A DNA stretch of 64,000 nt, taken from assembly GCA_004431415.1 (NCBI GenBank), contig QPMI01000400.1:124001-188000 (forward strand), written 5' to 3'. This stretch comes from Cyanophora paradoxa CCMP329 (lineage: Eukaryota > Plantae > Glaucophyta). The translations under genes and the position numbers were made by a program. This document shows positions 7,467-54,534 of the stretch, in pieces. Below the pieces are notes generated by a model. The model ran no database searches. It saw only the letters and a program-made list of their open reading frames with translations, and was not told the origin of the DNA. The stretch's first letter is position 1. Each line of letters opens with the position of its first letter.

Positions 7467-9553
7467 ATGGAAGAGGGCGCGGGGGCGTACGCTCGGCTGG
7501 AGGAGGAGGAGGAAGCCGCAGAACCACCAGCACATCTCCTCGCGGAGTTACCGCCAGAGTTGAGAGAAGGGCCTACGTCACAGCGCCGTGCGCGCCAGTG
7601 GCCGCTCCGCGCGCATCCGCCCCTTGACGGCGACAGCGGTCGCAGGCAAGCGGCACCACAGAGGGCCCGGCCACCTGGGCGATCGCTTCTCTAGTAGTCC
7701 AGGATACAAAGATCCGTTCTTTGCGATACTCTTCCTCGCACACCTCGCCCTCGTTCTCTTTTTGAGCGTACGCCCGCGCACCCTCTAGATCTGCGCTTGC
7801 CCCGCCGCACCCGCCGCACGCTGACCGCGCGGAGCAGGTGTACAATGGCACAAAGTTTTTATGGCTACCATCAACGCCGCTGCTGAAGACGGGTTCATAC
7901 TCGCAGGTCAGACGAACTATGTCGCGGTTACGGCGCCGCGCGCCCGGGCGAGCTGTCGCGCAGGTGGTGGGGGCGCTGACGGCGTGCGTGTTCGTGGCGG
8001 GAGCGGTGAGCGCGGGCCTGCTGCTGGTGCTGCGGCTCTTCGCGCGCGGCATCGTTCTCCTCTCGATGGGGGGCACGCTGGTCGCCCTCCTCGTCCTCTG
8101 GATCTCCCTCCTCTCCTCCGGGCACTGGCTCCTTTCGTTCGGTGTCCTCAGCGGGCTGGTGGCGAACGGCTGGTACTTCTACTGGGCCCGCCAGCGCGTC
8201 GAGTTCGCGACGGCGACCCTCACCATCGTTGTCGGGGCCGTCCGCCTGTACCCCGCCACCATCGCCGTCGCCTGCGCCTCCCTCCTCGTGACGGTGCGCA
8301 GCCCTCGGCCCCCTGCCGCCGCCGCCGCCGTGCGGGCGCGGGGCGACGCGTGGGGGGCAGATGGGGTGGGCGTCGGTGTGGGCGATGAGCGCGCTGTACA
8401 GCGTGCAGCTCGCCTCCGCCGCCTCCTACCACACCGTCGCCTTCCTCTACCTCCTCTCCCTCTACTGGACCTCCCAGGGCGAGCGCCGCCTCCCCTCGGG
8501 CGCCCGCCGCCCCCGCCGGCGCCCGCGCCTGACGGGCGGCGCAGTGTTCAGCAACGTGGTGCATGTGACGGTGGCGGGGACGGTGGCGAGCTGGTACTTC
8601 CACGTGGGGGCGGCCGGGGAGGGGGACCGGCCGCGGGCGGCGGCGTGGGGCAGCCTGCGGCGGGCGTGTACGTGGAGCCTCGGCTCGATCGCCCTCGGCT
8701 CCCTCCTCGTCGCCTTCTTCCGCGCCGCCCGCGCCGCCCTCCGCGCCGCCGCCCGCCTCCGCTGGTCCCGCCCCCGCCAGGCCGCCGAGTGGGCGCTGGG
8801 GGCGCTGGAGCGGGCGGCGCTCTACTTCAACGCGTACGCCTACGCGCACGTCGCCATCTACGGCAAGCCCTACCTCGCCGCTGCCCGCGACACCTGCCGC
8901 CTCCTCCGCGACCGCGGCCTCGGTCCGCACCCGCCCCGCCCCCCTCGGCCTTGTGCGAGCGAGCGAGCGGGGCGGGGCCGGCGGCAGACGCGGTGGTGAA
9001 CGACAACATCGTCGCGGGGGTGGCGGTGTGGGGCTCGGTGCTCGGCGGCACGCTCACGGCGACGCTGGTGGGGCCGTGGGCGCGCCGCGCCGCCGACCAG
9101 TGGCTCCCCGTCACCACCACCGCCTTTCTCGTGCGCCCCGCCGCCCCGCTCCCCCCGCCGCCCCGCCTCACCGCCGCGGGGGCCCGGGGGCAGCTGGGGT
9201 ACGTGATCGTGCAGCAGGCGATGGCGGTGCTCGAGTCGGGCGTCGTCGCCCTCTTCGTCTGCTTCGCCGAGGCGCGGCCCCCGCCCGGCCCCCCGCCCTC
9301 GGCCCCCCGCCCCCCGCTGAAGGCCCCGCAGGACCCGAAGGCCCTGCAGCGGACCAAGCCGGCCGTCTACCGCCACCTGACCGAGGCCTGGATCGCCCGC
9401 TGGGGTTACCTCCCCGCCTCCGCCTCCCCCGCCCCCGACGAGGAGGCCCCCGCCCCGTCCCCCGTCGCCGGGCCCTCGAACCTCGCCCCTACCCCCGCTC
9501 CCGCTCCCGCGCCCCGTCCCGCGGGGCCTCCTACCGGCGCCGACAAGCTTTGA
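7467..9553 (+). CDS. Choline transporter-like (CTL/SLC44, PNS1-like) membrane protein
   Basis: YKDPFFAILFL, YWTSQVFSNVVHVTVAGTVASWYF, SLGSIALGSLLVA, FNAYAYAHVAIYGKPY and FVCFAEDPKAL, all recovered after splicing. Confidence 0.88.
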
Positions 9554-9846
9554 CCGCGCCGCCGAGCGGCCTCATCCCCCTGCCGCGGCCACCTCGACCC
9601 GGCCCGTGCGCGAGCCGGCGCCGCGCGCTGGCCAGGCCATGACCACCGCGACCCAGCGCCGGCGCTTGTAGAACTGTACCATGTTGTCTTATGTAGCTTG
9701 CACAGTGCGTACTTGTTTCAATTCCGATCCCGGGCTTCCCTTTGCTCTTCGCACCCGCGTCAAGCCGCCGGCTCGACGCCTGGCCGGTGGAGCTAGCGGC
9801 TTGACCTGCATCATCAGATCAGAGCCAGCGGTTTCTGGAGCGTCGA

Positions 9847-10427: not shown

Positions 10428-10480
10428 TCCGATGTCGTGTTCAGAAATGAGCGAGTTTACTTAGCATCGTCGCGGGGCGG

Positions 10481-16000: not shown

Positions 16001-16895
16001 CCCTCGCCGCCCTCGGGCACGCCGCCCACGCCGCCGGCATGCACGCCGAGCTGCTCGTCGTGGAGTGGAACCCGCCCGAGGGGCGGCCCCGGGTCGCCGA
16101 GGAGTTCGTCTGGCCCCTCACCCCGCGCCTCGCCGTCGCCGTTGCCGCCGTCCCGTCCGGCGTCCACGCCGCCCTCCCCAACAGCGACCGCATCCCCCTC
16201 TTCGAGTGGATCGGGAAGAACGTCGGGGCGCGGCGGGCCCGGGGCGAGTTCGTGGCGGTGACGAACCAGGACGTCCTCCTCTCCCCCGCCCTCGCCGCCT
16301 TCCTCGGCGCCCGCCGCCTCGACCCCTCCCGCTTCTACCTCTCCCGCCGCTACAACCTCGCCCCCGCCCTCCACCCCGAGCTCCCGCCCCCCGCGGCGCT
16401 CGCCGTCGCCGCCGCCTTCGCGCAGACGGCGCTCCTCTTCGACCCGCCCGAGTGGAGCCGGGGCTTCGAGCCCGGGGCGGCGGGGCCCGGGGTGAGGGAG
16501 CCGGAGGAACTGCTGCTCGACAACCCCGGGGACCTCCTCCTCATGCACCGCGACGCCTGGGCCGCCACTCGCGGCTACCCCGAGGCGCCCCCGCCCCCGC
16601 CCCGCCCCCGGGCCCTCCCCCCACCCCCGCGCTCAGGGGGCCGCTGCGGCAGGTGGCGACGTCGGGGTACGTGGACTACGTGCTGCCGCGGGCGGCGGCG
16701 GGGCGGGGCCTCCGCTTCGCCCTCTTCGACGCCCCCGCCGCCCTCTTCCACCAGCAGCACGCCAAGGAGCACGTCACCCGCCCCGGCACCCGCCCCGAGG
16801 AGCTCCCCGCCGAGAACCCCCCCGCCTGGGGCATGGCCGGCGAGCCCCGCATCGCCACCTGCACCATCCTCCCGCCCCCTCTGGGCACCCCCTAG
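13001..16895 (+). CDS. Large type-II membrane glycosyltransferase-like fusion: IPT/TIG + STELLO(DUF288)-like + GT-A domain
   Basis: TM segment LALAALAVLAVAAVSW. IPT motif GGRVTIRGANFG..VTVLVGGQAC..ECEAPPG. STELLO-like FLSLAAQAALPF..RRMLGYLVALEAGA, WAQRLAW and DALLLDAWLADARALRLPFP. GT-A motifs YVSFVVVARNDDYGG, ELLVVEWNPP and KNVGARRARGEFVAVTNQD. Several apparent homopolymer indels. Confidence 0.65.
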
Positions 16896-17824: not shown

Positions 17825-20800
17825 TCAGGCGTCCTCGCTGAGGGCGTCCCAGATGGTGCGGGCCTGCTCGAGGGGCTTGGGCGGCCCGCGCGCCGCCGCC
17901 GCCGTCGCGCTCGCCGAGGGCAGGCTGTACACGTCCTGCACGTCGTCCTCGCCCCACGCCTCCGCCTCTGCCCGCCCCGTCAGCGCGCCCCGCCGAGCCG
18001 GCAGCGCGGGGGGCGGGGGCGGGGCGGGCACCGCGGCGCTTGGGCTTCGGGGGCCGGCGGACGGGGGCGAGGGCCGCCTCCGGGGGCCCCAGCCGCTGGC
18101 ACACCTCCGAGAGCAGGATCCGCGGCCTGCACCCGCCCCCGCCTCGCCTCGGCGCGGCGCGGCGCGGGCGGGGCGGGGCGGGCGGGGCGGGCGGACAGGT
18201 GGGCGGAGGGGTCCGCGACGACGGTCACGACGCGCGACGGCTCGCTGCCCTGCGAGGGGGTGCGCGTCAGCAGGGGGGTGGCGGGCCGGGGCCGGGGGCC
18301 AGGGCGCCTTGGAGGAGGTGGCCATGGCGTAGGCGCGGGCGAGCTCGTGCAGCGTCGCCCGCTCCTCGGGCCCCAGCGGGCCCAGCACGCAGCGCGCCGT
18401 CTGCCCCGGCGCCCGCTCCCGCTCGGAGAGGAGCGCGTGGAGGCGCTTCTCGAGGGCCTCGACGAGCCCCGGGCGGGCCCGCCCCGTGGCCACCAGCTCG
18501 GGGCCGAAGCCGTGCTCGTCGAAGCCCGGGGGCTTGGGGACGACCCCGAGGGCCTCCGCGAGGGCCCGGTTGCGCTCCTCCACCGCCTTCTCCGCCGCGC
18601 ACTCCTCGTCGCAGGCGATCGGCTCCCGCTCGCCGCACGTCGTCTCCCGCTTGACCCGCCCGCACTCGCACCCCGCCGTCACCGGCTCCCGGCACGCCTC
18701 CTCCGCTGCGCCGGCGTGGGCGAGGGCGCGGGGCCGGTGCGCGAGGGCGGGGCGGCGGCGCACGGCACTTCTCGCAGGGGTGGCACGCCGCCCTGCACTT
18801 GTGCCCGCACTCGCGGACCGTGCCGCACGGCAGCCCGCACGAGTTCAGCGTCAGCTTGCCGTCCGCCGCCCCCGCCACGCCTGCGCGTTCGTGAGCCGCG
18901 CTCCGGACGGACGCGGGCGGGGGCGAGCACATGGCGGCGGGTGGCAGGGTCCTGCGCGGCGGAGGGCGGAGGCTTAGAGGAGGCGGCGCTGACGCGGGGG
19001 CGGGTGGGCGCACGGGGGCACTCGTGCTCGCCGCAGCACAGGGGCCGGCCGCAGGGCGCCCCGCACGAGACGACGGCGAGGCTGCAGGCGACGCGGCGGC
19101 GCTGCCCGTGGCCCCCGCGCACGCCCGCTCCACGAACTGCACGCACGGCGGGCACGGCCCCTCGTCTGCCGCCCCCCGGCGTCACCGGCGGGGCGGCGCG
19201 GGGCGGGGCGGGGCCGGGCGGACGGCAAGTGCGCATGCACGGGTGGCCGCACTCGCGCTGGCGGCGGCAGGGCTCCGGGCAGTCGGGGAGCTGCGTGCCG
19301 CACCGCACCGGCGGCCGCAGCGACACCCGCCCGCACGGGCACGAGACCGGCTCCCGAGACACAATGCCGCACTGCGCCGCGTGAGGGGCGGCCGGCGGGC
19401 GCCCCGAGGCCGGCGCGGGCGCGCGGGCGCACCGGGGGACAGTGGCCCGAGTGGCAGAGGAGGTCGCACGAGTGGACGCCGCACTTGAGCTTCTTGCCGC
19501 ACGGCAGCTGGCAGATGTGCAGGCCGTCCCGGTCCCCGCCCTCCCGCACTGGCCCCGCCGCCCCGTCAGCCGCGCGCGCGTCGAGGGCCTCAGGGGCGGT
19601 GCGGGTGGGCGCACGGGCGGGGCAGCACTTGAGGGGGCAGCGGTGCCGCCCGCAGCTCTTCTTCGCCCCGCACGGCTCCTCGCAGAGGGGCACCGCCTCC
19701 CCGCACCGCACCGAGCGCGCCGTCGCCCCGCACCGGCACGCCGTCGGCACGCTCTCCTCGCACGGCGCTGCGTGGGGTCAGAAGGGGGCGGGCGGGCGGG
19801 CGGGCGGGGCGCGCACGGCAGGGCCCGTGGTGGCACGGGGCGGAGCAGGCGTGGCCGCACGGCCTGAGCACCCCGCACGGCTGCCGGCGGCTCAGAGGCG
19901 GGGGGGATCCCGGGCGGGGCGCGCGTCGGAGCGGACCTTGCCGCAGGTGGGGACGGGGTCGAGGCAGGAGGCGCGCGGGGCGGCGAGGAGGGCGGCGAGG
20001 GGCGTCTTCCCGCAGGGGCACGCGGTGATGCGGGCGGGGGCGGCGGGGCAGGGCGCGCAGGGCCCGTCGTGGCACGGGCGCTCGCAGGCGTGGTTCTTGC
20101 AGTCGAGCGCCTGCGCGCGGCGTCCCGTGCTCAGCGCTCGGCTTCTCTCAAGCGTCGGCGTCCAGCGGCACCTTCCCGCACACGGCGCCGCAAGAGAACA
20201 TCGCCGAGCCGGGGGGCCGCCCGGGGTCCATCTCGCTGCACGCCTGCTCGCCCCGCTGCCGCCCGCAGTAGCACGCCGCCGGGACCCGCTCCGGGCACGT
20301 GCCGCAGGGTGCCGGGTGGCAGCTCGCGGTGCAGCGGTGCCGCCGGCACGCGAGCTCGGCCCCGCACGCCTCCCCGCACGACCGCCCGACGTCGACGTCC
20401 GAGCACCTGCCGGCCCCCGCTGCCCTCAGCCGCCCCGCCGCCCGAGGGGAGGGCGCCGGCGGCGGGCGCGCTTGAGGCGGTAGGTGGTGCGGCCGCAGTG
20501 GCAGCTCTTGGCCTTGCCCAGCGCCGCGCACGGCGCGCACGGCCCCGGGTGGCACAGCGCGCTGCACGGGTGCGGGCACTCCGTCCCGGCGCGAAGACGG
20601 CCGCAGAGCTCCCCTGCCGCCCCGGCGGGTGAGCGAGGCGGGGGGGAGGGGCCGGGCCGGGGCGGACCGCAGCTGTGGGGGGCGAGGTAGGGGTTGGGGG
20701 CCGGCTCCAGCGTCTTCCCGCAGAAGCACCTGCCGCCCCGCCGGCCTCCTCGGCGCGGGGCGGGGGGGCGGTGGGCGGGGGCGGGGCCGGGGGCACCGGT

Positions 20801-22151
20801 ACTCGCGGGGCTGGGCGAGGTTGACGAACTGGCACCCGGGGCAGCGCCACGAGTTCTCTGCCCCCGCGCCCCCGCGCCCGTCAGCGGCGCCGAGGCCCCT
20901 CTCGGGGGCGGGGCGCGGGGGCGGACCCTCGTTGGAGGCGCGGGCCCACTTGCGGACGCAGGGGAGGTGGAAGACCTGCCCGCCGCCCCCGTCTCCGCCC
21001 CGCGCTCCAGAGGGCGGGGCCGGCGGGGCGCGCGCACGGCGTAGCAGCACTCGCAGGACCAGGTCGGCGCCGCCCGCCGGATCCCGTCCGTGCACACCAT
21101 GCCTGCCGCCGCCGGAGTGGGTGGGGGCGGGGACAGCAAGGCGGCGGCGGGGGCGCTCACACTCGTACTCGTTGGAACGGAGGAGGTCGACGATCTCGTT
21201 CACGCGGTCGCTGTACTTCTCCAGCTGCACGCCCCGCCACCCCTGCCGCGCCTGGATCTCCGCCGCCGTGTGCGGCCCCCGCCGCCGCCCCGCAGCAGCC
21301 GCCGGGCCCGGCTCCTGCCCCCGCCCGCCCTGCTGCTCGTGCTGCTCCTGCTGCTGTGACTGCGGGCGAGGGGGGCGCCGTTGCTGCTGCTGCTGACGTG
21401 GCCCGCCGCCCTGCTGCTGCTCCTGGCCGTGGCTGAGGCCGCCCCGCCCGCGCCCGCGCCCGCGGCCCCGCCCGCGCCCGCCGTCCGCGAGGCCCGTGTC
21501 CGCCGGCGCCTCTGCGGAGGCGGCGGGCGCTGCGCCGTCGCCGATCGCCTCCGCGGCTGCGAACTGGTGTTGCTGCTGGGGCGGCCGCCGCGGCTGGGCC
21601 ATCCCCCGGCCCCTTCCGCGACCGCGGCCCCCGAGCTGCGCCTCCGATGGGGCGGAGGCGTCGACGGGCGCGACCTGCTCGCTCGGGCCCGCCGCAGAGT
21701 GCTCTGCGCCGGCGGCATGCGGCTGCGGCGGGCGCCGCGGGCCGCGGTGTCCCCTTCCGCGGCCTCGGAGACCGTCTTCAGAGCGCTGCTGCATATCGCT
21801 GCCAGCGCCCGCCTCGTGCTGCGCGCCTGGGTGCGGCTCGTGCGAAGGAACGCCCGCATGCTGCCGATCGCCGTGGCTGCGCTGTCCGCCGCGACCGCGC
21901 CCTCGCCCTCGCCCGCGGCCACCGCGCGATCCGTCGTCGCTCGCGCCAAAGCCGACGTACGCATCGTTCTGAGCGGCCGCGGGTGTCGCGAGAGGCACTA
22001 GTCCGCGTGGCTGCCACTGCTGATATGGTTGTTGCGAGCGCCTGTCATTTGCTCGCGCGCGAGAGCTCTGTGAGGGATCTCCATGCGTCTGCGGGCCTGC
22101 CGAGCCCGCCGATCCTTCCATGCCTTCGTCGATCGGATCTGGGCGCGCCAT
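17825..22151 (-). CDS. NFX1: NF-X1-type zinc finger protein with RING/PHD, repeated NF-X1 fingers and an R3H domain
   Basis: YECMVC..WSC..CYAVFHLPCVRKWA..WRCPGCQ, many CGxHxCxxxCHxGPC repeats, R3H-like EERATLHELARAY, and an RGG-rich N-terminus. Confidence 0.88.
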
Positions 22152-33742: not shown

Positions 33743-35368
33743 CTAGGGACGGCGAGCGGAGCGTGCCTGCTTGGCGCGTCGCTGGGTCTCCTTGCGGACG
33801 GAGGAGAGGCCCCAATCGACGATGGGCCAGGCGCGCTCGCGGGCGATCTTGCGGAGGCGGTGGTCGGGGTTGACGACGACGGGCGAGCCGACGATCTCGA
33901 GCAGGTCGAGGTCGGTGACGCTGTCCGTGTAGAAGACGCAGTCGGCGAGGTCGACGGCCTCGCGGGCCGCCCACTCGCGGACGCGCTCCGCCTTGGCGTC
34001 GCCGTAGGCGAAGGAGGCGATGCGGCCCGTGAAGCGGCGCTCCTCGTCCAGCTCGAAGGTCGTGCAGATCGCCTCGTCCAGCCCGAAGTGCTCCAGCGCC
34101 GCCTCCGCCGCGTACAGCGTCGAGCTCGTCGCCTGCACCCGCCCGCCCCGCCCCGCGTCGGCCCGGCCCCGAGGCCACCCGACCGGCAGCGCCGGCAGCG
34201 CCGCCGCCCGCTCACCAGCACGAGCCGGTCCCCGTTGGCGCGGTGCTGCCGGATCGCCTCCACGGCGCCTGCGGGGCGGGCGGGCTCGGCGCCGGCGACG
34301 CGGCCGGCACGCGCTCGCTCGCGCGGCGCACCCGGCCTCAAGCGTGGCCGCACGCGGTGGTCGAACCAGACCTGGGGCGGGGCGGGGCGGCGGACGTGAG
34401 CCGGCGCGAGGTCGGCTTCCACGGCGGCAGCACCTTGGCGCGGAGGGAGAGATCGGCCTCCTTCTGCCCCGCGATCTTGGCGACCGCCTCGGCGTACGGC
34501 TTCTCAGCCTGCCGGCCGATGCTTGTTAGAAGAAGAGTGGAAGAGAGAAAGGAAAGGAAGAGAAGCGGACCCCGCCGTGGCCGAGTCGGTACTTAATGAG
34601 CCAGTATGCTCCCCGCACTGCGTCCCTGACCTTCACGTTGCCCTCCTTGATTTCGTGCATGAGCCAGAGATTCGCAGAGTTGCAGTCGATGAGAGTCCTG
34701 TCCAGATCGAAGAGTGCTACGCGCAACTTCTTCTCAGCCTCGGCGCCGTTGCTAGAGGCGCCATCCACGCTCGCTGTGTCCGCGCTCGAGGTCGAGGACT
34801 CCGCTGTCCCGCCGGGCGACTCTGCCCGCGGGGCTGGGAAAACGGGCGAGCTAGATCCTGAGCCTGAGCCGCAAAATCAGCTCTTGAACAACCCAGGAGC
34901 GAGCCCGGGAGTGCGCACCAGCCGCAACGACGAATCTTTGCGGCGAAGCGCACTCGGCCGGCTGGAACCGCCGGGCCACGAACTCTACCGCAGCCCCGGC
35001 TCTCCACGATGCACGCGATTGAGAGATTTCGTTCGCCGTGGCGCCCCGCGCAGACGTTTGGGCGCACACGGAGCTCGGGCCCGCGTGCGGCGACAGGGAG
35101 GAGCCGATCCATCGCCGTGTGGCCGAACCGGCCGCTACTGCCACATACAGCGTTGGCCGCACGGTGAGGCCGCCTGCGCCCGGAGCGCCTGGCGCTTCTG
35201 GCCACATCGGAACGCCTGCGCCGCGGGTGGGCAATCAGATAACGCAGAAGGGTGCGCAGAAGGTAACGCAGGCAGCACTGCGCACACAGGAGCCCCCTGC
35301 CGAGAATCCTTAGATTCCGCTGCGCCGAGTCCAGTCGTACCCTGGTCCCGACTGACAAAGTCTGACAT
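33743..35368 (-). CDS. HAD-superfamily subfamily IB (SerB/PSP-like) hydrolase with an N-terminal extension
   Basis: Motif I ALFDLDRTL, motif II LVL-ATSS, motif III GDAKA, and motif IV FYTDSVTDLDLLEIVGSPVVVNPD. The start at 35368 (MSDFV) is tentative. Confidence 0.85.
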
Positions 35369-38500: not shown

Positions 38501-38875
38501 TCCATCCCCAACGCGCCCCCCGGCGTCCCCGACGGCGGCCCCTCCTCCTCCTCCCCTGTGCCTCAGCTGGTGCGTTCGCCCCGCCGCACCGACCCCCGCC
38601 CCGAGCGATCGGCCTCGCAGGGCGGCCCGGAAGCGCCGGAGGGAGCGGCGGGCGGGCCGAGCGGGGCGGGGGCGCCCGGGCAGCTGGTGGCGCTGGCGCT
38701 GGCGGGGGCGCCGGCCGGCTTCCGGCGGCAGGTGGCGACGACGACGGCGATCACGCTGAGGGACCTGCTGCGCACGATGGAGAGGCACCCCGTCCTCCGC
38801 AAGTCCCGCGTCCTCTACCGCGCCTACGCTCGCCTCGGCGAGCCCAAGCCCGGCCTCTCCGCCCCCTCCCCCTAG
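35517..38875 (+). CDS. TAF4: TFIID subunit TAF4 with RST domain
   Basis: RST-like FSAIIESAK..PDKHQLLNSLSERFRRNEVKKEQVVKELQGIVGVDLL. Histone fold EAIQLMSHALEIFCSNLV. Also VTSDVKK, SANKTALAAVG and C-terminal ITLRDLLRTMERHP..KSRVLYRAY. Confidence 0.88.
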
Positions 38876-40506: not shown

Positions 40507-43148
40507 TCAGGCGGGGGCGTCGGGGTCGGCGTCCTCCTCCGGGGGGAGGGCCCTGTAGGGGGCCTTGCCGGGGGAGCCCGAGGAGAAGAAGGCGCGGAGC
40601 TTGGAGAAGGAGCCGTTGGCGGCGCGCGCCGACTCCGCGAGGCGGGGCCGGTGCGCGTGCTTCCCGTGCACGGCGTGCACCGCCGTCGCGAAGGGCTCCG
40701 CGGGGCCCCGCGCCACCTCGCCCTCCCCGCCCGGCCCCTCCCCGCCCTCGGGCTCCGGCGTGAGGCGCCCGTGGGCGTGGGCGTGGGCGGCGCGGGCGGG
40801 CGGCCGCTCGGCGGCCTCGAGGGCGGCCTCCTCGTCGGCGTCGAGGAGGGGCGAGTGCATCTCCTCGCCCGGCGCCTCGGAGCGCTCGCGGGCGAGGAGC
40901 GCCTCCCGCTGCCAGTCGATCCGCAGGAGGAAGAGGCTCTGCACGAGCGCCACGACGACCGTGCCGCACGCCAGCCCGATCCAGATGCCGCGCAGGCCCC
41001 AGCCGACCTTGAAGGCGAAGGTGTAGGCGCACGTGAGGCCCACGCCGGAGAAGCCGATGAGGTTCGCCACGGCCCCGACCGTCGGCCGCCCGATGCCCCG
41101 CAGCACGCCCCCTTGGCTGCACTGCATCCCGTCTGCGCCGCCCACCGACGTCATGCACCCGGCGATGCGGGCGCGCAGGGCGGGGGCGGGGGCGGGGGCG
41201 GGGGCGGGGGCGGGGGCGGGGGCGGAGGCGGGGCGCACCGAAGATCTGGAAGGCCGCCATGATGGGGAGCATCGCCGCCACTGCCGCGCCGCAGCGTCAG
41301 CGGGGCGCGCGAGCGCGGGGCGCGGGGCGGGGGACGGGCAAGGCGGCGCTCACCGCGGTCGACGACCTCGTGCTCGCGGGTGTACGCGTAGGCGAGGTAG
41401 TGGCGGGTGGAGAGCACGAAGAGCGCCTCGACCGCCATCCCCGCTGACGCACGGTGAGGGGCGGAGGGCGGCGCCGGGCGGCGGCCGGGCGGCACCGCAG
41501 GCGACGGTGACGCAGACGCGGGCGGAGCGGCGGGCGCGGGCGGCGTCCCCCGCGCCGAGGAAGTTGCCGATGCGCGTGCTGCCGGCCCCGGAGACCCCGA
41601 GGCAGTACATGAAGAAGAGCGCCGCCAGCTGCGCCCCACCGCGTCGAAAAGGGCGGGGCAGGGCCAGGCCGGCGGGGCAACTCGCGCGGGCCTGAAGTGT
41701 TATGGCGTGCGCATCGAGAGAGATTTGCCCGAGCAAGCCGGCCATCAGAGACGCCGTCTCGAAGCCCCACGCCTGCCGAGCGGAGGCGCGGTGGGCCGAA
41801 AGGGGAGGGGCGGGGCAAGGGGGCGGGGCGGGGGCGCCTCGAGGCAGATCATGGCCGAGGCGGGGAGGGCGAGCTTGAAGGCCGTCCAGAGGCCGGCGGC
41901 GCTGAGGGCGGCCCGCGGCTGCCAGCCGGGCCACGTGCTCCTGTGCAGGCCCATCACCAGAATGTACCCCAGGAGGAGCCCGAACTGCAGCCAGCGCTGC
42001 GCACGCCCCCGCCCGCGTCGGCGCCGGCGCCCCTGCTGGGGCGCGCGGGGGCGGCGGGGCGGACGGAGATGGTGGTGGCGAGGGAGGAGCCGGTGAAGCC
42101 GAGGCCGGGCCAGGAGCCGAGGCCGCGGACGAGGAGGAAGTTGAGGGCGAGGTTGAGCAGGTTGGCGATGATGCCCACGACCATCGCCGGCCGCACGTTC
42201 CCCTGCGCCTGCAGGTACTTCTACGCCGGCGTCAGCTGCTGGCACGGGGCGCCCGGGGAGGAGAGGCCCGGGGCGGGACGGGGCGGGGCGGCGCCTGCAT
42301 GAGGAAGAAGTACATGAAAGGGAGCAGGCTGAACAGCTGCGCGTACACGAACTGGCCCGCCAGCTGCCGCGCCGCCGTCGGCCCCGGCGGCGCAGGGCGG
42401 GGCGGGGCGGGGCGGGGCGGGGCGGGGCGGGGCGGGGCCGACCTTGGCGGTGGCGGGATCCTGGCCGATGGCGATAAGGGCGCGCTCCGTGAGTAGCCAG
42501 CAGACGTACACGGGGATCGAGAAGGCGGTCCCCACAACCAGGCCCCGCTGCAGCCAGATCCCCACCAGCATGTACTGCTCTGCGCGCCGGCGGTGATAGT
42601 GAGCGCCGCGAGCGCGCGCGGCTGCGCGGCCCGGCGCACTGGCTCCGTAGGCCTGCGAGCAGAGCGTCTCGAGGGCGGAGGTGGCGCCCTGGCTGCTAAG
42701 GAACGTGGCCCACTGCCACGTATTTGCCAACGCGGCTGCCGCAAGCTTGTCAGGCCCCTGAGGCCCTACGAACATGAGGTCCACAACGCCCATGCTCATC
42801 CCTGCCGTCCGTGTGAGGGCGCGCTGAGCGCTCTCCCGGACGGCTAGAGCGGACACCGCCCGCAACCGCGGGCACGTCTAATGCTCAGCAGCACTGCCTT
42901 CCGCACCCAGGAAATTGGTCATGACGATCGGCCACGCGAGTTTGTACAGCTCGAGCACCTCCTGCCGGTATGATAAGCACGCGGAAGCCGGGCGCGCGCA
43001 CACACAGGACCACTGCCGCGCAGTCTACAACCGCACATATAACCAGAAGCCTTAGAGCGCGTATCCGGCAAGCCCCGCGCACCGTCTTTATCGGCCCAGC
43101 CGTGCTCCGCCTCGCAGCGCTCACACCGCGTTCGAGAGCGGCGGTCAT
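40507..43148 (-). CDS. MATE family multidrug/toxin efflux transporter
   Basis: LYKLAWPIV, LAAAALAN..ALETLCSQAYGA, KYLQAQG, KLALPASAMICLEAWGFE, STRIGNFLGAGD and DGMQCSQGGVLRGIGRP. Confidence 0.92.
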
Positions 43149-45205: not shown

Positions 45206-45249
<44 letters not shown>

Positions 45250-45859: not shown

Positions 45860-45929
<70 letters not shown>

Positions 45930-47077
45930 TGCCGCGTCGGCCGCGGCCGCCGACGAGCCGCCGCCCCTCGAGGAGGTCCCGGAGGCCGCCCCCGCGACCC
46001 CCACTGCCGCCGCCCCGCCTCCCGCCGAAGCCGCGCGGCCCCGCCCGCAGCGCCGGCCGCCTTCCCCCCGCCTCGCCCCGACTCCGCCGGCCCCTCAGCC
46101 CCCACTTCCGCTCCCGCCACCGATCGCACCGACTCCGCTGCCCCTGCCGCCGCCTCGCGGCCCGCCACCGAAGAGAGTCCCGCCGCGGCCAACGCGCCGG
46201 CGCCGCCTCCCGCGGAGCCGGCGGTAGAGGCCCCCGCCGCACGGAAGCGGGACCTCGACGTCGCTGACATCATCCGCGCCGCCCTCTCCCGCCCCGCCCG
46301 CCCCGCGCCGGCCCCCGAAGCCGCGGCCCTGGCCCCGGCCCCATCTATGCCTTTCGACCCGCCCGCCCGACCCGTCTCGCCCCCTCCTGCGCCCTCCTCT
46401 CCAGCACCGCCCCCTCCTGTCCCGCCCGGTGCGGCGTCGTCCGACGCCTCTCCGGCCCCGCCACCGCCACCCCCCGCCGAGCCAGCTCCGCCCTCAGCTC
46501 CAGCACCAGCATCCGACGCGAGAGGCGCATCAAAGCCCCGCCTCGCCCCCGCATCGCCAAGCGCGCCCTCTCCCGAGACATCTCGAGGACAGGCGAGCAT
46601 CCCGCGAGCAGGAAGAAGGTCGGCCTGTGCTCCGGCCCGGCGTCTCGCTCCCGTCCGTCGGCACAACGGCTCAGGCGGCGCCGTGGAAGGACTGCTGCTG
46701 GGCCCGCCCCCGCCGCTGCCCGAGGGGGCGCGGGAGGCCCTTGGAGAGGAGGCGGGGCCGTCCGAGTACGAGCGGCACGTCGCGCGCAGCCTCGCCGTCG
46801 AAACCGCGGGGGCGCGGCCGGCGCCTGCCGCTCCCTGGACCGCCGCAGAGGACAGCATCTTGCAGGAGGCCGTCCGCAGGTCGGCGCGGCCCGCCTTCTT
46901 CCAGGGGGCTCGCAGTCAATTTGACTCGACCGGCGGCGCAGGCTGCGGTTCGACTTCGAGCGTGCGGCGCGCGCCCTGGGGGGGTCCCGCTGCGCGGCGG
47001 CGTGCCGCCTGCGCTGGGCCGCCCTCGAGGCCGCTGCAGCTGCAGCTGCGGACGCCGGCCCCTGGTTCCTCTACTAG
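43425..47077 (+). CDS. DNAAF1: Dynein axonemal assembly factor 1 (LRRC50/ODA7) with a long low-complexity region and a C-terminal SANT/Myb-like segment
   Basis: [48 protein letters not shown]22-type LRRs, LRRcap [21 protein letters not shown] and RRCAEAW. The 3' end (WFLY-stop at 47077) is less certain. Confidence 0.85.
45862..45927 (+). repeat. (GCC)22 microsatellite encoding polyalanine in DNAAF1
   Basis: Uninterrupted GCC run. Confidence 0.9.
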
Positions 47078-47216
47078 CTTCGAGCGCTTGCCATAGCGCG
47101 CGATCGCAAAATTAACGACCCCAGAAACATTTCAGAAGGCCTCTAGCTATAGGGCGGAAGAGCCGTACGCGTGCCACGGTGCTTTCTTCAGTGGGCGGCC
47201 GCGGTGTGCGGTATTC

Positions 47217-47264
47217 AGTCGGAAGTACGTACCCAGCGTAGGCCGAAGTCGGAAGTACGTACCC
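47217..47264. promoter_or_regulatory. 18-bp direct repeat AGTCGGAAGTACGTACCC x2 upstream of PMT
   Basis: Identical copies at 47217-47234 and 47247-47264. The regulatory role is inferred from position only. Confidence 0.4.
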
Positions 47265-47487
47265 GGCCTAATCCGTTCGCACCAATTTGCAAACACCACG
47301 CGGGCGCACGAGCGCAGCGCACGACAGTGTGCGATCTCCTGCCTGCTCTATAACTACGCCAGCGGCCTAGGCCTCCCTGCAGCGCTCAATCGCCGCGCGC
47401 TCTCCCTCCTCTCGTTAGCAGACCCGCGCTCCGATCACAGCGCGCAATCGTCAGCTCGTCCGTTGATGCGCTAGCGATGCAGGCCCA

Positions 47488-49994
47488 ATGGAGTCGCTGA
47501 GGCGGCGCCACCCGAACGCGTCGCCGGCCGCGGCCGAGAAGCGCGACTCGCCGGCCGCGCAGGCTCCCGCGAGCGACTTCGTGCACATCAGCGCAAGCGA
47601 GGACAAGCCATCAGCCGTCGGCAGGCGCTCGGCCTCCCCGATGACCCCGCGAAAGCGCTCGCCGTCGCCGTCTCGCGACATCTCGCTGCTGCGCGCTCTG
47701 CGCACCGCTCCTCCGCCGCAATCGGTGTTCCACAACAGCACGTTCGGGCTTCTTCTCATCGTTCTGACCGCTGCGGCGGTCACCCGGTTCCTCCTCATCG
47801 ACTATCCTGACGTATTTCACTCCTCGCACGCGTTCCAGAGAACCGCCACTCACGCTGCTGTCGCAGTCCGTGGTCTTTGACGAGGTTCACTTCGGCGGCT
47901 TTGCGAACAGGTCCGGCGCCCGCGCGCGCGTGCTGCGTCCCGCGGCCCGCCTCCCTCCGGCCCTGCCACCTTGATGCGCGCGCCCGAGCTCGGCAGGTAC
48001 TGCGAGGGGCGCAACTTCTTCGACATACACCGCGCGCCCCGGCCTCGTCCCCCGCCGCGCCCCCGCCCTCCCCGCACCGGCGTCGACGGCGCCGCGCGCG
48101 CGCAGCGCCGCTGGGGAAGCTGATCCTGGCGGCGGCGGCGCGCATGCGGCCCGAGTACAAGTGCGACTTCAACTTCGGGGCGATCGGGAACAGGTACTCC
48201 GAGAACAGCACGGGGGTCCCCTACGCCCTCCTCCGCTCCTTCCCCGCCGCGTCCGCACCGCACCCGCGCCCGCCTCCCCGCCCGTCGCTGAGGCGCCGGG
48301 CAGGGCGAGCGTGGCGAGCGCCGGGGTGGTGTTCGCGCTGGGGCGGCGGCTCGGGATGTCCCCCGCGACTTCGACGCTGGCCGGCCTCCTCTTCGTCCTC
48401 GAGCCGGCGATCCTCCTGCAGTCGCGCCTCGTCCTCATCGACTCCTTCCTGCTCCTCTTCGCCCTCGTCTGCCTCCTCGCCTCGTTCTCGTCCGCCCCCC
48501 GCCCCGGCGCCCGCCCGCGCCCCGCCGCCCACGCGCGCCGGCCGCAGCCTCGCGGAGCACCTGCCGGGGGCGGGGAAGGGCCGGGAGCCCTTCACGAGGC
48601 GCTACTGGGCGTGCCTCCTGGCGACGGGCGCGGCGGCGGGCCTCGCGGTCAGCGTCAAGTGGACGGCGCTCGCCTCGCTCGCAGCTGTCGGCCTCCACCA
48701 CGCCGCCCTCGTCCGCCCCCGGCTCCTTCAAGGGCCCGATCGGTCAAGGGCTGACCCAGCGGCCCCCGGGTCCGCAGGCCGTGCTGACCATCCGCGCCTC
48801 CGCCCCGGGGCGCCCCGCCCGCCTCGCCTGGGCCGACGCCCTCACGGTGCCATGCGCGCCCCCCTCTCCCTCCCCTCCCAGCCCTGACGGCGGCGGCAGC
48901 GGGGCGCGGCCCTCATCGTCGTCCCATGCGCCGTCTACCTCTGCTTCCAGCGCGCCGCGCCGCCCCCCCGCGCCCCGCGCCGGCCCCGCGCGAGCTGCCG
49001 GCCCGCCCTCGCAGGTGGCTCCACTTCGCGGCGCTCCCGCGGAGCGGCCCCGGGGACGCCTTCTACACGCCGGCCTTCCGGGCGGCGCTGGAGGGGGGCC
49101 TGCGGGAGGGGGAGACGCTGGAGGGGACGCCCCTCCCCTTCCTCGCCCGCGTCCGCGAGATGAACCGCGTCATGTTCAAGTCCAACAGCGGCCTCCGCGC
49201 CACACAGTGACCCCTCTCCCGCCCGCACCCTCGCCCGCCCGCCTCACCCGCCTCGCGCAGCCCGTACCAGTCCGTGTGGCACGAGTGGCCCCTGGGGCGC
49301 GGCTCCATGTTCTACTGGAGCGGCGCCGCCCAGCCCGAGACCTGGCCCAACGGGCCCGCCCCGCCCCGCCCCGCCCCGCCCCGCGTCGCTCCGCCCCGCC
49401 CGAGCGGGCCGCGCAGGCAGCCGAAGGAGCGGCGGATCTTCCTGCTGCTGAACCCCGCCGTGGCGTACCCGGCCGCCGCCGCCCTCCTCGCCTTCTGCGT
49501 TTTCGCCGCCTATAAGGTCCGCCGGCGCCTTGCCCCGCCCGGCGCCCAAGTCGAGGCCTAGGGCGGGCGGGCGGCAGGTGCTCTTCGAGGTACCGTTCGC
49601 GCCGGGGACGCTGCGGCTGCTGTGGACGGGGGCGCTGCTGCTCGCCTCCTTCGCCCTCAACCTCCTCCCCTACGCCCTCGTCCAGCGCTCCACCTTCCTC
49701 TACCACTACTTCCCCGCCCTCCTCCCCGCCCTCCTCCTCGCCTGCGCCCTCCTCGAGCACGCCCTCCGCGCCCGCCCCGCCCTCCGCGCCGCCGCCTGCG
49801 CTGCCGCCGCCGCCGTCGCCGCCGCCTTCTTCGTGCGCCCGCCGCTCGCCGGCGGCCTCTAGATCTACCTCCCCGCTGACGGGGGGCCGGGGCAGGTGTA
49901 TCTGGCGCCGTTCGTGTACGCCCTGCCGCTGACCCCGGAGGGCCTCGCCGCCCGCATGCGCTTCTACCACATGACGGGGCCCCCGCCCGCCTGA
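47488..49994 (+). CDS. Dolichyl-phosphate-mannose:protein O-mannosyltransferase (GT39), lacking MIR domains
   Basis: VVFDEVHFGGFA..Y..G..FFDIHPPLGKL, QSRLVLIDSFL, SVKWTAL, HPYQSVWHEWP, IFLLLNP and TFLYHYFPAL. Confidence 0.9.
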
Positions 49995-50203
49995 GCGCCC
50001 CGAGACGAGCTTCGAACTTCATGCTCAGACGTCGGCGTCACGGCGCGCTTGGAATGGTCAAAGCAGAGTATCCCAGACTGCAGCGCCTTTTGGCTCAACT
50101 GCAGCGCCTGCCTTATTTTTGAGCTGGCCGCAACCTGTCTCTGGTTAGCTCCAATCTGACTCATCGCAATTGTCCGCAAAGTCTCGAGCGGCACGGGGGC
50201 CAG

Positions 50204-53200
50204 CTAGTGGCGGGGGGCGGGGTTGCCGAAGTAGGGGGCGAGGGCGCGCTGGACGGCCTCGTGGACGGCGGCGCGGAGGGCGGCGGGGAGCGCCTCGACG
50301 CGCTCGACGAGGGGCCCGAGGGCGGCCTCCTTGCCGGCGGCCGAGCCGGCCCCCGAGGGCAGCTCCGCCGCGAAGAAGGGCGCCTCCTCCCCCAGCAGCT
50401 CCCCGTCCTCCCCCTCCTCCTCCCCCTCCTCCTCCCCGAAGCGCGCGTAGGCCCCGGGGCGGCCCCCGCCCGCCTCCTTCCGCGCCCGCGCCGCCTTCAC
50501 CTGCGCCGCCGCCGCCGCTCGGGCGCGTGCGGGGGCGGCGGGCGGGCGGGCGGACCGCGGAGAAGGCGGCGAGGGCGGGGCCGGGGCGGAGGAGGAAGTA
50601 GAGGAGGGAGAAGGGGGCGAGGAGGAGCAGGACGAGGAGCGTGGTGATCGCCAGCCCGGGCGTCGAGCTCGGGTAGCTCCGCCTCGAGTCCGCTGCCGCC
50701 GCGTCGCCGAGGCGGGGCGGGCGGGGGCGCGGCGGGCGGGCGGGCGGGCGCACCGAGGCGCCAGCAGAGGAAGGGGGTGTCGATGAGGGCGCGGAGGAGG
50801 TTGAGGGGCGGCGGCACGAAGAGGGTGTCCTTGTTGAAGGCGAGGACCGTGTGCGCGAAGCGCGCCCGGTACGCCTCCTGCGAGCGCGACGCCACCGCCT
50901 CGTACGTCCCCGTGAAGATCGCTGCGGCGCGGGGCCGGCGGCGCTCAGCCTCGCGCGGCGTGGGGCGGAGGCGGCGCACCGATGAGGAGGTTGAGGAGGA
51001 GGATGACGCTGACGAGGGCCCAGAGGGCGAGGAGGAGCTGCCCGGCGACGGGCGCCGCCGCGTCGAAGGCCCCGAAGTCGACGTCGCCGAGGGCGGCGCG
51101 CAGGACGACGCCGGCGGTGCCCGAGATGGGCGTCGGCGCCCCGTCGACGACGGTCCCCGCGACGCCGTGCAGCGTCACGACGAAGCCGCAGGCGACCACC
51201 GCGAAGAGCACCGCGAAGGTCGCCACGTCTGCCGGCCCCGCGCGGTGAGCGCCGGCGGGGCGAGGCGGAGGCGGGCGCGGGGAAGGCGCGCCGGAGAACA
51301 TGCCACCGACGATCTGGACGAGGGGCCCGAGGCGCGAATGCAGCTCAAAAACCCGAACGAGGCGTACGTACAGCAGCACGCCGTCTGCCGCGCATCGGGC
51401 CGGGCGGGGAGCGGGGAGCGGGGCGGGGCGGGGCGGGGCGGACTGCAGGCGAGGATGTCGAAAGCGAGCATGGCCTGGTCGTGGTCGCCGCGGGTGGCGG
51501 CGAGGAAGCGGAGGGCGAAGGAGAGGAGGAAGGTGGCGGCGAGGGCGCAGTCGAGGAGGTTCCAGGGGGACCTGAAGTAGGCGCGGCCCTCGTCCAGGAG
51601 CTGCCCCGCCTCGTACTGCACGAAGGCGAGGAACCAGAGGAGGAGGAGGAACTCGCGGGGGCGGAGGTCGACGGTCGGGAGCATGAGGACGCGGGTGTAG
51701 ATGGCCACGAAGGCGAGGTAGAAGAGGAGCTCGAGGCAGAACTTGCCGCGCGGCGCCGCGAAGAAGCTCCCCGCCGACCCGTCGCACAGGTTCAGCGGCG
51801 TCCCGTACGGCCGCACCACCAGCGACGAGAGCGTCGCCGTCCCTGCGCCCCGGCGGCCGGCTCGGGCAGAGGGAGGGCGGAGGGGCGGGGCGGGGCGGGG
51901 CGGACAGGAGGAGCAGCCGCGGTCCCAGAGGCGGTCGACGAGGCGGCGGACGGCGTCGTGGGCGAGCAGCTTCGAGGCGTCCAGCTCCCGCGCCAGGTCG
52001 ATCGGGCACGGCGAGACCGCCGGCGCCCCCCGCCCGTCCACCCCCAGCTGCTTCGCCACCGCCGCCTGCACCTGCCCCCACCCGCCTCGGCGGCCGCCCT
52101 GGGCGGGGCGGGGCGGGGCGGGCGGGGCGGACGCGGTCGGGGTGGGCGGACTCGGCGACGCCCTCGATGATGGCGTGCGAGAGGGCGAGGCACTCGTCGG
52201 CGCACTGCTCGAGCTTCGCGGGGTCCTCCGCCCGCCCGGGGCCCGCCCCGCGCCCCGCCGCCCGCTCCGCCTTCTCGCGGAAGGCGCGGGCGAAGAGGAG
52301 GGCGGCGAGGACGCCCTCCTCCGAGCCGCCGGCGAGGGCGGCGAAGGGCGCGCGGGCGCCGAAGGGCTCCTTGGGGCGCGCCTCGCCGGCCACGAAGTAC
52401 TCGACCATGCGCTCGAGGTGGGCGCCCGAGCCGGCGGCGCGCGTCTCCCGCCCCGACGCCGGCGCCAGCGCCAGCAGCGCCGCGTCCGCCTCGCCCTCGT
52501 CGCTCGCCGCCTCGGCGCAGTCCCAGTGCCCCCGCCAGGCCGCCCACTGCACGGCGCTGAGGTTGTTCCTGTCCTTGACGTGCGGGTCGGCGGCGGCGGC
52601 GCGGAGGGCGCGGGCGACGTCTGTGCGGCCCTTGAAGCAGGCGTAGTGGAGCGCGGTCCAGCCGCCGGCGTCCTGCACGCCCGTTTCCGCCCGCGCCTCG
52701 TCCACCAGCTGCTCCACCACCCCCTCCGCCCCGGGGTACAGCGACGCCCACATCAGCGCCGTCATCCCCCGCCGGTCCTGCTGCAGAGGTCACCGGGCGG
52801 GCGGGGGGTGTCCGGCGCGGGGCGGCCCGGCGGGGCGACGTCGACGCGCCTGGGCGTTGACATCGGCGGAGCGGGAGGCGAGGAGGGCGGCGAGGCGGCG
52901 GTTGCCGTTGCGGGCGCAGTACATGAGCGCCGTGCGGCCCTCCGCGTCCCGCGCGTTCACCTCCGCCCCGGCCCCCACCAGCTCCCTGCCCGCCGTCAGC
53001 CCGCTCCCCGCGGCCGAGGCGGGGCGGGGCGGCGGACGCGGCGAGGGGCTCGAGGACGGGGTCGTCCGCCTGGGCGATCGCCATGAGGAGCGTGCGCCCC
53101 GTCTTCGCCTCCCGCGCCTCCCGCGCCCGCCGCACGCCGGCCACCGGCGCGCCCCGCGAGAGCAGCAGCGCGCAGGCGGCCGTGTCGAGGCGGGCGGCGG

Positions 53201-54534
53201 CGGCGGCGAGGGGCGGGACGGCGGAGGCCTCGGGGCGGCGGCGGCGGGGAGGCGCCGCGTTCGAGGAGGAGGCGGGCGGCCTCGAGCTCGCCGCGCTCGA
53301 GCGCGTGCACGAGGGCCGAGCGGTGGGCCCCGTCCCGGTCGTTGATGTTCCCGTTGTACGCTGCGGCGGCGATCAGGCTCGGGCGGCCACGGGGCGCGCG
53401 GGCGGGCGGGGCGCGCGCCGGCGAGGAGGGCCTCGAGGCAGCGGGCGCTGCCGGAGCCGGCGCCGAGCATGAGGCGGTCGTGCCGTCCGCGTCGGTGAGC
53501 GTCGGGTCGGCCCCCGCCTGCAGGAGGACGCCGAGGGTGGAGACGGCCCCCGCGGAGGCAGCGAGGTGCAGCGGGCTCCGCCGCTGGTTCGAGATAGCGT
53601 TCACCGCCGCCCCCGCCCCAGCAGCGCCTGCGCCGCCTCCGCCGCGTCCACGCGCGCTGCCGGCCCCGTCAGCGGCGCGGCGGCGGCAGGAGGGGGGCGG
53701 CGGGCGGGCGGCGCTCACCGGCGGCGTGGAGGGCCGACTCGCCGCTGGCGTCGCGGGCCTCCGGGTTGGCCCGCGCCGCGAGCAATGCCTTGACCGCCTC
53801 CGCGCGCCCCGCGTACGCCGCCAGCATCTGCCCCGCCCCGTCGGCCTCGGATGCGGCGCGGGGGCGGGGGGCGGGGGTGGGGGCGAGTGGCGGCGCACGA
53901 GGGGCGTCTCGCCGCTGGCGTCGGCAGCGTTGGCCATGGCGGGGGCCTGCTGGCAGCAGCGCCGCACGAGCTCCAGCATCTCGGCGTCCTCCGCCGCGTA
54001 GTGAAGGACCGTGCGCCGCGTCGCCTCGTCTGCAGGAGCCGACCGCACGTCTACGCCCCGCTCCAGCAGCTCCGCCACCTCCTCAGCGTCCCCCCGCCGC
54101 GCCGCCTCCAACAGCAGACCCGCGTTTGGCGGCGGTGAGGGCGCCCCCCGCCCCACCGGCGGCGGGCCTGGCGGCGGCGGCGGCCGGAATGAGCCCGTGG
54201 CTCCGGCGGGGGGAGGGCCTGCGGGCGGCGCCGGCTTGAAGCGCGACGCGGTCCCGCCGGATTGGAACTGCGCGCGGAGCGCCTGCACCGAAGTGGCCGA
54301 CGAGTTGAGCGAGTCGAGCTCGCCCCCGCCGACGGGCGCGTAGCCGACGTGCGCCCTCGGCGACAGCGGATCAATGTACGCCTCGCCCTGCGGTTGCATC
54401 GCTGTTCCGATCCCGAAGCTCCTCCGCGGCCCCAGGCCGAAGTCCTGCACGGGCACTCGCGTAGCCCGTTCCGGCGAGGCGTACTGTTGCGTGCCGCCGT
54501 AGCCCGACGAGGCGGACGCGTAGCTCCCCAGCAT
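50204..54534 (-). CDS. Ankyrin-repeat TRP-family cation channel
   Basis: About 12 ankyrin repeats. Pre-S1 LLAHDAVRRLVDRLW; FFAAPRGKF; YFRSPWNLLD; LGPLVQIVGGMFSDVATF; S6 VILLLNLLIAIFTGTY; TRP-box region ending VPPPLNLL. Confidence 0.85.

What the first reader, a model, noticed from the sequence alone, without database searches (positions are those of the whole stretch)
8360..54000. G-block/C-block alternation phased to exons and introns flips synonymous codon choice
SEEN: gene bodies alternate G-rich and C-rich blocks of ~60-200 nt. Typically the intron 3' end and exon 5' half are G-rich (GCG, CTG, GGG, GTG codons), while the exon 3' half and intron 5' part are C-rich (GCC, CTC, GGC, GTC; CCCCG runs). 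Examples: PMT G 49561-49640 then C 49641-49850; CTL exon 8545-8922 runs G-C-G-C; the GT region 15660-16900 switches about ten times, mostly with no intron at the switch. The pattern is its own reverse complement and appears in genes on both strands. INFERENCE: a second code over the coding sequence, either a dyad-symmetric nucleosome-phased signal (exons at G-to-C switches, introns at C-to-G switches) or pre-mRNA hairpins that define exons or introns by base pairing.
Basis: partly seen in the sequence, partly recalled or inferred. Interest (0 to 1): 0.75.

Follow-up and report, generated by a model that had tools for sequence, protein, structure and literature searches.

The report
Exons start G, end C
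In this very GC-rich, intron-dense alga (likely Cyanophora paradoxa), silent codon positions are about 80% G at the start of an exon and about 90% C at its end, and they also flip every ~120 bases inside long exons, which likely reflects selection on how the unspliced RNA folds and would amount to a second message written over the protein code.

Summary
The pattern is real and strong. Across 105 gene-body exons, four-fold sites are 490 G:127 C in the first 30 nt and 70 G:562 C in the last 30 nt. All 8 codon families flip, on both strands, and the flip holds at 8 RNA-joined introns. The G-to-C switch sits near mid-exon and scales with exon length. Fixed-period models fit far worse, and 50 of 149 exon+intron cycles are under 147 bp, so one nucleosome per cycle is unlikely. 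Last exons also end in C with no donor, and long exons oscillate internally at about 240 nt. Folding shows no sequence-specific hairpins. The blocks do reduce short hairpins and exon-intron pairing and modestly favour pairing between an exon's two ends. Best reading (0.4): selection on pre-mRNA folding, pinned at exon edges; a protein-read splicing code or a mutational bias remain open. The same polarity is published, as a looser trend, for Ectocarpus exon ends (PMC3787667). Two unnamed metagenomic eukaryote contigs share it. This scan noted opposite-polarity versions on other DNA. Verdict: an extreme new variant of a known kind.

The parts
8360..54000 (.). Gene bodies with alternating G-rich and C-rich blocks; the pattern also covers 1-5700 and 62300-64000
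8545..8922 (+). Choline-transporter-like (CTL) exon with two G-to-C cycles and an internal C-to-G switch near 8786-8795, no intron
   Evidence: RNA contig X20 covers 8544-8921 unbroken; P0001 carries PF04515
14950..16584 (+). Long exon (about 1635 nt) of the glycosyltransferase-like gene with several internal G/C cycles; the label is from recalled motifs, no Pfam hit
   Evidence: RNA pieces 15318-15842 and 15933-16578; the rest is predicted
16585..16652 (+). Predicted GC-AG intron at the one C-to-G switch in 15660-16900 that coincides with an intron
17826..21300 (-). NFX1-like gene (label recalled), 18 curated introns, 8 of them joined in RNA contigs; at those 8, four-fold sites are 33 G:14 C after acceptors and 9 G:33 C before donors
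31106..31881 (+). 776-nt predicted exon with internal oscillation (autocorrelation trough at 120-144 nt, peak at 216-264 nt)
33743..34132 (-). 390-nt last exon of the HAD hydrolase gene: one G-to-C cycle that ends in C although no donor follows
38621..38875 (+). Last exon of the TAF4-like gene (label recalled): G start, and all 14 four-fold sites in the last 60 nt are C
40507..41132 (-). 626-nt last exon of the MATE-like gene (label recalled) with internal cycles and a C-rich end
49517..49577 (+). PMT intron (predicted, GT-AG), C-rich 5' part and G-rich last ~15 nt
49578..49832 (+).
52133..52780 (-). 648-nt predicted exon of the ankyrin/TRP-like channel gene (label recalled) with three G-to-C cycles
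63356..63926 (+). 571-nt predicted ABC-transporter exon with two cycles; the internal switch near 63760 follows an intron-like C-rich stretch that may be an unrecognised intron

Best explanation
Silent codon positions are G-rich where an exon begins and C-rich where it ends, likely because selection shapes how an ~80% GC pre-mRNA folds: matching each exon edge to the adjoining intron edge would keep exon and intron from pairing, and would let the exon's G half pair loosely with its own C half. Shown: the polarity, its scaling with exon length, the C-rich ends of last exons, the ~240-nt oscillation inside long exons, and the computed folding shifts. Inferred: that these shifts are what selection acts on, that they help the spliceosome and 3'-end machinery see exon edges, and that long exons break into several such folding units of at most ~300 nt. 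The pairing would be compositional (G block with C block), not a defined hairpin.
For: (1) The signal is mainly synonymous and does not depend on the next base: 9-17% G before donors when the next base is A, C or G and 7% before T; 79-83% G after acceptors, 57% before T. (2) The switch lies at about 0.44 of exon length. (3) Exon edges track the adjoining intron edge (rho +0.21, p 0.018; rho +0.22, p 0.011) but not the far edge (0.09, -0.02). At the 18 of 147 introns without a C-rich start, the exon end is only -0.32 against -0.73. (4) Last exons end 28 G:154 C with no donor. (5) In 77 exons, against gene-wide synonymous shuffles: 3'-third self-pairing falls (0.142 vs 0.210, p 2e-4), exon-intron pairing falls (0.071 vs 0.101; 0.104 vs 0.139; p 0.003, 0.001), and 5'-third/3'-third pairing rises (0.202 vs 0.138 nascent, p 0.025; 0.129 vs 0.081 in context, p 0.14). 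Inverting the polarity roughly doubles exon-intron pairing (0.144, 0.185). (6) Short-range folding is weaker than shuffled: -76.4 vs -80.5 kcal/mol around 127 introns, -150 vs -165 in 17 long-exon windows, where pairs shift from <=40 nt to >100 nt span. (7) The signal appears where GC at four-fold sites rises from 0.80 to about 0.97; gene-body introns are 87% GC and 7% U, so they offer no U-rich contrast to exons.
Against: The folding shifts are modest, are computed only, and follow from any G/C block layout, so they may be a by-product. There is no sequence-specific pairing: real and locally shuffled sequences are about equal. Accessibility of the donor, branch point and acceptor cores barely changes (donor 0.373 vs 0.350, p 0.1). 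In the first folding test exon self-pairing did not rise, and it fell for the 40 nt after acceptors (0.314 vs 0.398; windows cut exons at 130 nt). Four-fold skews of the two exon halves are not negatively correlated (rho 0.08, n=86; all positions +0.32), which a strict balance would predict. Many folding comparisons were made with 1-5 shuffles each and no multiple-test correction. No polymorphism or divergence data show selection. Opposite polarity in fungal genes (PMC3315797) suggests such skews can arise by other routes.
Confidence: 0.4

Rival explanations
1. A protein-read splicing code: G/purine-rich exon starts would bind SR-type enhancer proteins and C-rich tracts around donors would bind poly(C)-binding proteins (recalled families), telling true splice sites from abundant decoys.
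For: Donors are degenerate (140 GT, 36 GC of 176) and decoys outnumber real sites (244 vs 114 at a threshold that keeps about 75% of real donors). Adding flanking skew to the motif cuts false donors at 80% sensitivity from 207 to 70 in leave-one-gene-out tests. Additive decay from both splice sites (about 50-70 nt) fits as well as a relative-position model (AIC 2729 vs 2723). The same polarity is reported in a study of splice-related exon-end skews in Ectocarpus.
Against: Weak donors get no compensation (rho 0.03; GT -0.70 vs GC -0.69). The gain for acceptors is small (72 to 60-64 false). It does not by itself explain C-rich last-exon ends or regular cycles inside long exons.
Confidence: 0.25
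2. A neutral strand-biased mutation or repair regime that changes with the state of RNA polymerase II at exon edges, the exon-by-exon analogue of the gene-level fungal skew.
For: It is strongest at four-fold sites, independent of context and continuous across exon-intron borders. It extends about 30 nt past stop codons. McLean and Tirosh propose such regimes for fungal genes.
Against: The G:C odds change about 30-fold between the ends of an exon (490:127 vs 70:562), over as little as 60-90 nt; I know of no mutational process of that size or grain (own judgement). Amino-acid use shifts in the same direction (Pro 59 vs 90, Val 94 vs 57, Glu 82 vs 54), though mutation can also do this. It does not explain a preferred ~240-nt internal period.
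Confidence: 0.18
3. A dyad-symmetric nucleosome signature, with exons on cores and introns in linkers.
For: Palindromic base asymmetries around dyads are described in yeasts and affect codons. Long-exon interiors oscillate more regularly than random blocks (contrast 0.247 vs 0.00+-0.055; 0 of 400 simulations), and this survives dropping the two longest exons. The pattern is roughly its own reverse complement.
Against: 50 of 149 donor-to-donor cycles are under 147 bp, yet cycles of 100-150 bp keep +0.4/-0.65. The switch scales with exon length and fixed periods fit poorly. The raw autocorrelation has no second peak. The internal period (~240, range ~200-340) differs from the intron cycle (median 173). 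The intron profile follows transcription direction.
Confidence: 0.12
4. Internal switches in long exons are relics of lost introns or unrecognised introns; this would be an add-on to any edge-anchored cause.
For: 45 of 127 gene-body C-to-G switches lie more than 15 nt from a curated junction; some sit at a CAG or after intron-like stretches (8777-8780, 63697-63761). Most of the annotation is predicted.
Against: RNA contigs are unbroken across internal switches in CTL and the GT-like exon. The internal period (~240) is longer than the median exon (112). Interior amplitude is close to edge amplitude, which would need recent mass loss. No sawtooth asymmetry was found (skewness 0.03), though that test is weak.
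Confidence: 0.05

Closest known systems
Antisymmetric C/G use at exon ends in Ectocarpus siliculosus (Wu et al. 2013, PMC3787667; passages and section 16 read, figures not seen)
   Same: [quoted passage not shown]
   Different: [quoted passage not shown] Here all 8 four-fold families flip, including CCN (48:10 to 16:65). It is visible exon by exon (100 of 108), continues into introns, marks last exons and oscillates inside long exons. The effect size in Ectocarpus is in a figure I could not see.
Opposite GC skews at 5' and 3' gene ends in unicellular fungi (McLean and Tirosh 2011, PMC3315797; abstract and passages read)
   Same: A strand skew that changes sign along a transcript, affects four-fold sites and amino-acid use, and extends into UTRs; cause open.
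   Different: Opposite polarity (C at 5', G at 3'), once per gene, and of similar size at non-degenerate positions; the main text has no occurrence of 'exon'. Here it restarts at nearly every exon and is mainly synonymous.
Nucleosomal signatures of yeasts (Quintales et al. 2015, PMC4422121, parts 1-2 of 4 read; Gonzalez et al. 2016, PMC5088595, abstract and outline read)
   Same: Palindromic base asymmetry laid over coding DNA, affecting codons and amino acids, and writable through synonymous codons.
   Different: Tied to 150-bp mononucleosomal DNA, present in all three codon positions and in intergenic DNA, and stronger for A/T in S. pombe. Here the length scale follows exon size, and it is G/C and mainly third-position.
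Splice-enhancer-driven exon-end biases in animals, with nematode asymmetry (Warnecke et al. 2008, PMC2374712; Wu and Hurst 2015, PMC4476162; passages read)
   Same: Codon and amino-acid trends that depend on distance to the splice site.
   Different: Mostly symmetric and purine-rich at both ends; the word Cyanophora does not occur in Wu and Hurst 2015.

Membership tests
Splice-related exon-end codon skew (Ectocarpus type) | Synonymous choice depends on distance to the exon boundary | tested here: met
Splice-related exon-end codon skew (Ectocarpus type) | G preferred at 5' ends and C at 3' ends of exons at four-fold sites | tested here: met
   490:127 vs 70:562
Splice-related exon-end codon skew (Ectocarpus type) | Overall 5'/3' symmetry with purine-rich enhancer motifs at both ends | tested here: not met
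   All 8 four-fold families are antisymmetric; enhancer hexamers were not derived
Splice-related exon-end codon skew (Ectocarpus type) | Stronger signal beside weak splice sites | tested here: not met
   rho 0.03 with donor score; GT and GC donors equal
Nucleosomal signature | Fixed ~150-bp scale and regular repeat | tested here: not met
   long-exon interiors show ~240 nt
Nucleosomal signature | Palindromic on the two strands | tested here: inconclusive
   Exon ends are nearly mirror images; introns are lopsided
Nucleosomal signature | Phase locked to mapped dyads | not testable with these tools
   no MNase data available
Fungal gene-level GC skew | C-biased 5' end and G-biased 3' end, once per gene | tested here: not met
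   Opposite sign, restarting per exon
Defined pre-mRNA hairpins that set splice sites | Sequence-specific complementarity beyond local composition | tested here: not met
   real about equal to local shuffles
Defined pre-mRNA hairpins that set splice sites | Compensatory changes between relatives | not testable with these tools
   no orthologous DNA was available

The most novel reading that the evidence does not exclude
Several ultra-GC-rich, intron-dense protists define exons by folding rather than by motifs. Almost every synonymous site in the gene body is spent on a G-arm/C-arm layout that turns each exon, or each ~240-nt piece of a long exon, into one loosely paired unit with both edges freed from the flanking introns. 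It replaces the U-rich intron and polypyrimidine-tract cues, and it makes exon definition directly testable by silent recoding.
Probability: 0.25. Interest if true: 0.85.

Novelty: new variant of a known kind. Interest (0 to 1): 0.6.

Why it matters
Synonymous sites in this genome carry little room for ordinary codon bias: position in the exon predicts the third base. That matters for gene prediction (flanking skew cut false donors threefold), for transgene design in glaucophytes, and for evolutionary analyses that treat four-fold sites as neutral. Exon-end codon skews are usually faint statistical trends with disputed causes. Here the effect is visible in single exons, so folding, protein-binding, chromatin and mutation explanations can be told apart with a few recoded minigenes or one nucleosome map.

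Tried and rejected
No whole genome was held, so all statistics rest on one 64-kb window. No run on record as RNA holds the stretch; four guessed-RNA contig sets were used. They listed 15 joints, of which 8 are NFX1 introns and 7 are long joints between look-alike GC repeats that I ignored; 376 were not shown. PMT, TRP and most other introns have no RNA check here. The first homology search, on window:37243-37701, was out of frame and found nothing. Assembly artefact rejected: 16 DNA runs hold 0.95 of the sampled words of 44001-53900 (these may not be independent of the window's source), and RNA contigs match exons apart from single-base insertions. Amino-acid composition as sole cause rejected; neighbouring position-1/2 skew adds a smaller independent effect. 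Decoy avoidance as main cause rejected because the bias holds for every following base, although G before T is under-used and decoy donors in the last 40 nt are fewer than in shuffles (13 vs 23+-4). Curation bias rejected: the uncurated gene finder, whose codon and intron-body scores do not favour G or C, gives 760:303 and 182:839 over 182 introns. CpG periodicity was not seen. A metagenome motif scan gave 29 loci; 27 show no clear block signal and serve as rough GC-rich controls. The lineage of L027 could not be named (best of 120 listed hits 71%). Pfam named 3 of 8 exons. Literature searches for this pattern in Cyanophora or glaucophytes returned 0 papers, as did a search on C-rich/G-rich GC-donor introns; searches listed nothing closer than the papers cited. 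The library lacks most subscription papers, and I opened no supplements; figures or supplements of PMC3787667 and PMC12695648 may bear on effect size and on nucleosome spacing.
Full report
Source. One exon (8547-8921) is 100% identical to a EukProt protein named tig00020537_g10261.t1. Names of that form occur in a Cyanophora paper (search listing only) and in Price et al. 2019 (PMC6704402, abstract and passages). That paper gives 67.6% GC and 9.2 introns per gene of mean length 86 bp. The species is therefore likely Cyanophora paradoxa; this is an inference. No whole genome was held, so everything rests on this window.

Annotation. I wrote a gene finder whose codon scores treat G- and C-ending codons alike and whose intron body has no composition term. 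It rebuilt P0001 exactly and placed frame breaks near several of the single-base insertions seen in RNA contigs. I curated 176 introns in 19 genes (140 GT, 36 GC, all AG; median 61 nt). I kept 10,196 of 12,133 codons, dropping ambiguous low-complexity stretches and 15 nt around frame breaks. 'Gene-body' sets also drop the first 500 nt of genes with a known start. Eight introns are joined in RNA contigs; the rest are predicted. Gene labels other than CTL, HAD, PMT and ABC are recalled from motifs.

The observation. Raw skew is blocky beyond chance, and the three cited examples check out. At four-fold sites the skew is +0.65 just after acceptors and -0.68 to -0.77 before donors; positions 1 and 2 move far less. 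In 105 exons of 60 nt or more, the first 30 nt hold 490 G:127 C and the last 30 nt hold 70 G:562 C. All 8 families flip, both strands agree (+0.62/-0.75 and +0.56/-0.80), 100 of 108 exons follow the rule, and none of 500 shuffles comes near. At the 8 RNA-joined introns the counts are 33:14 and 9:33, and the uncurated annotation gives the same picture.

What sets the scale. In exons of 60-280 nt there is one G-to-C switch at about 0.44 of the exon length. Its median position moves from 35 nt to 97 nt as exons lengthen. A relative-position model (AIC 2723) and a two-edge decay model (2729) both beat fixed periods of 150-250 nt (3081-3288); some of the fixed-period fits may have stopped at local optima. 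Fifty of 149 donor-to-donor cycles are shorter than a nucleosome core, and cycles of 100-150 bp keep most of the amplitude. Last exons end in C without a donor (28 G:154 C). Inside 17 exons of 300 nt or more, at least 60 nt from either end, the choice still comes in blocks and oscillates at about 240 nt. That is more regular than random-length blocks (0 of 400 simulations) and survives removal of the two longest exons. Of 127 gene-body C-to-G switches, 82 are at exon junctions and 45 are internal; 138 of 139 G-to-C switches are inside exons.

Mechanism tests. The bias does not depend on the next base, so avoiding decoy sites is not its main cause. It does not compensate for weak donors, but it does track the skew of the adjoining intron edge. 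Flanking skew is informative for donors (false) and only slightly for acceptors. Folding shows no specific hairpins: real and locally shuffled sequences behave alike. Against gene-wide shuffles, the real layout weakens short-range structure, lowers exon-intron pairing and modestly raises pairing between the two ends of an exon; inverted polarity does the opposite. Splice-site cores are not clearly more open, the first test showed no gain in exon self-pairing, and the exon halves are not balanced against each other. These folding effects follow from composition and do not prove selection. I favour the folding explanation (0.4) because it is the one account that covers edge matching, scaling, last exons and internal cycles. 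A protein-read code (0.25), a mutational bias (0.18), nucleosomes (0.12) and intron relics (0.05) remain.

Other organisms. A motif scan of metagenomes returned 29 loci; 27 show no clear block signal. Two look eukaryotic, with similar introns. In hand-set exons, L027 (a PIF1 helicase gene; best listed hit 71%) has 40 G:15 C in 5' halves and 17:36 in 3' halves (6 exons, p 4e-5). L008 has 24:5 and 9:17 (2 exons, p 4e-4). They were picked by an intron motif, so their intron skew is circular, but the exon skew is not part of the motif. Their lineages are unknown.

What is known. Wu et al. 2013 (PMC3787667, passages and section 16) report the same polarity in Ectocarpus as a nuance on symmetric trends. 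McLean and Tirosh 2011 (PMC3315797, abstract and passages) describe the opposite polarity once per gene in fungi. Passages of PMC2374712, PMC4476162 and PMC10030826 cover exon-end and splice-linked asymmetries. The passages of PMC12695648 that I read list C. paradoxa among the species sampled for 6mA but give no nucleosome spacing. Searches for this pattern in Cyanophora or glaucophytes found no paper. Earlier notes of this scan describe opposite-polarity exon skews in other genomes; I did not test them.

Verdict. A real, unusually strong, exon-anchored G-to-C polarity at silent sites. The kind is known; the strength, the scaling, the last-exon ends and the internal ~240-nt cycle appear undescribed in the library searched. 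The cause is not shown. Interest 0.6.

Noticed in passing
window, all genes (examples 8479, 16585, 18307): 36 of 176 curated introns start with GC; the donor consensus is G-Y-S-C-G-C, the acceptor is GCAG in about 94% of gene-body introns, and those introns lack a U-rich tract.
   Followed up: partly
window 40, 589, 1080, 1236, 4267, 4489, 4801, 14188, 14212, 15382, 15676, 19111: RNA contigs carry one extra G or C at these places (4 more not shown), so the window has single-base deletions that mimic frameshifts.
   Followed up: yes
first 250-500 nt of genes, e.g. 2623-3497 (-) and 35584-36400 (+): Lower GC (0.80 at four-fold sites) and ApT-richer introns (about 20 per kb vs 2-9); some 5' introns (36030-36123, 36295-36361) have ordinary U-rich tracts. 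This may correspond to the post-start 6mA zone described for other eukaryotes in PMC12695648; untested.
   Followed up: partly
window 14460-14467, 44840-44848, 62048-62057: Predicted micro-exons of 8, 9 and 10 nt; no RNA check.
   Followed up: no
window 58535-58883 and 56649-56885: Long near-perfect inverted repeats (174-nt arms, 94%, 1-nt gap; 89-nt arms, 94%) inside an AT-rich stretch at about 55.5-61 kb. Rfam hits are hairpin families below their thresholds, and no tRNA was called. Possibly a fold-back element or hairpin-RNA locus.
   Followed up: partly
window 30142-30220, 31882-31939, 44849-44903: Introns that are G-rich from their start, exceptions to the C-rich 5' rule; as a group, the 18 of 147 introns without a C-rich start follow less C-rich exon ends.
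   Followed up: partly
L027 1-1490 (-) and L008 60-900 (-): Unnamed metagenomic eukaryote contigs with the same intron motifs and the same exon polarity.
   Followed up: partly
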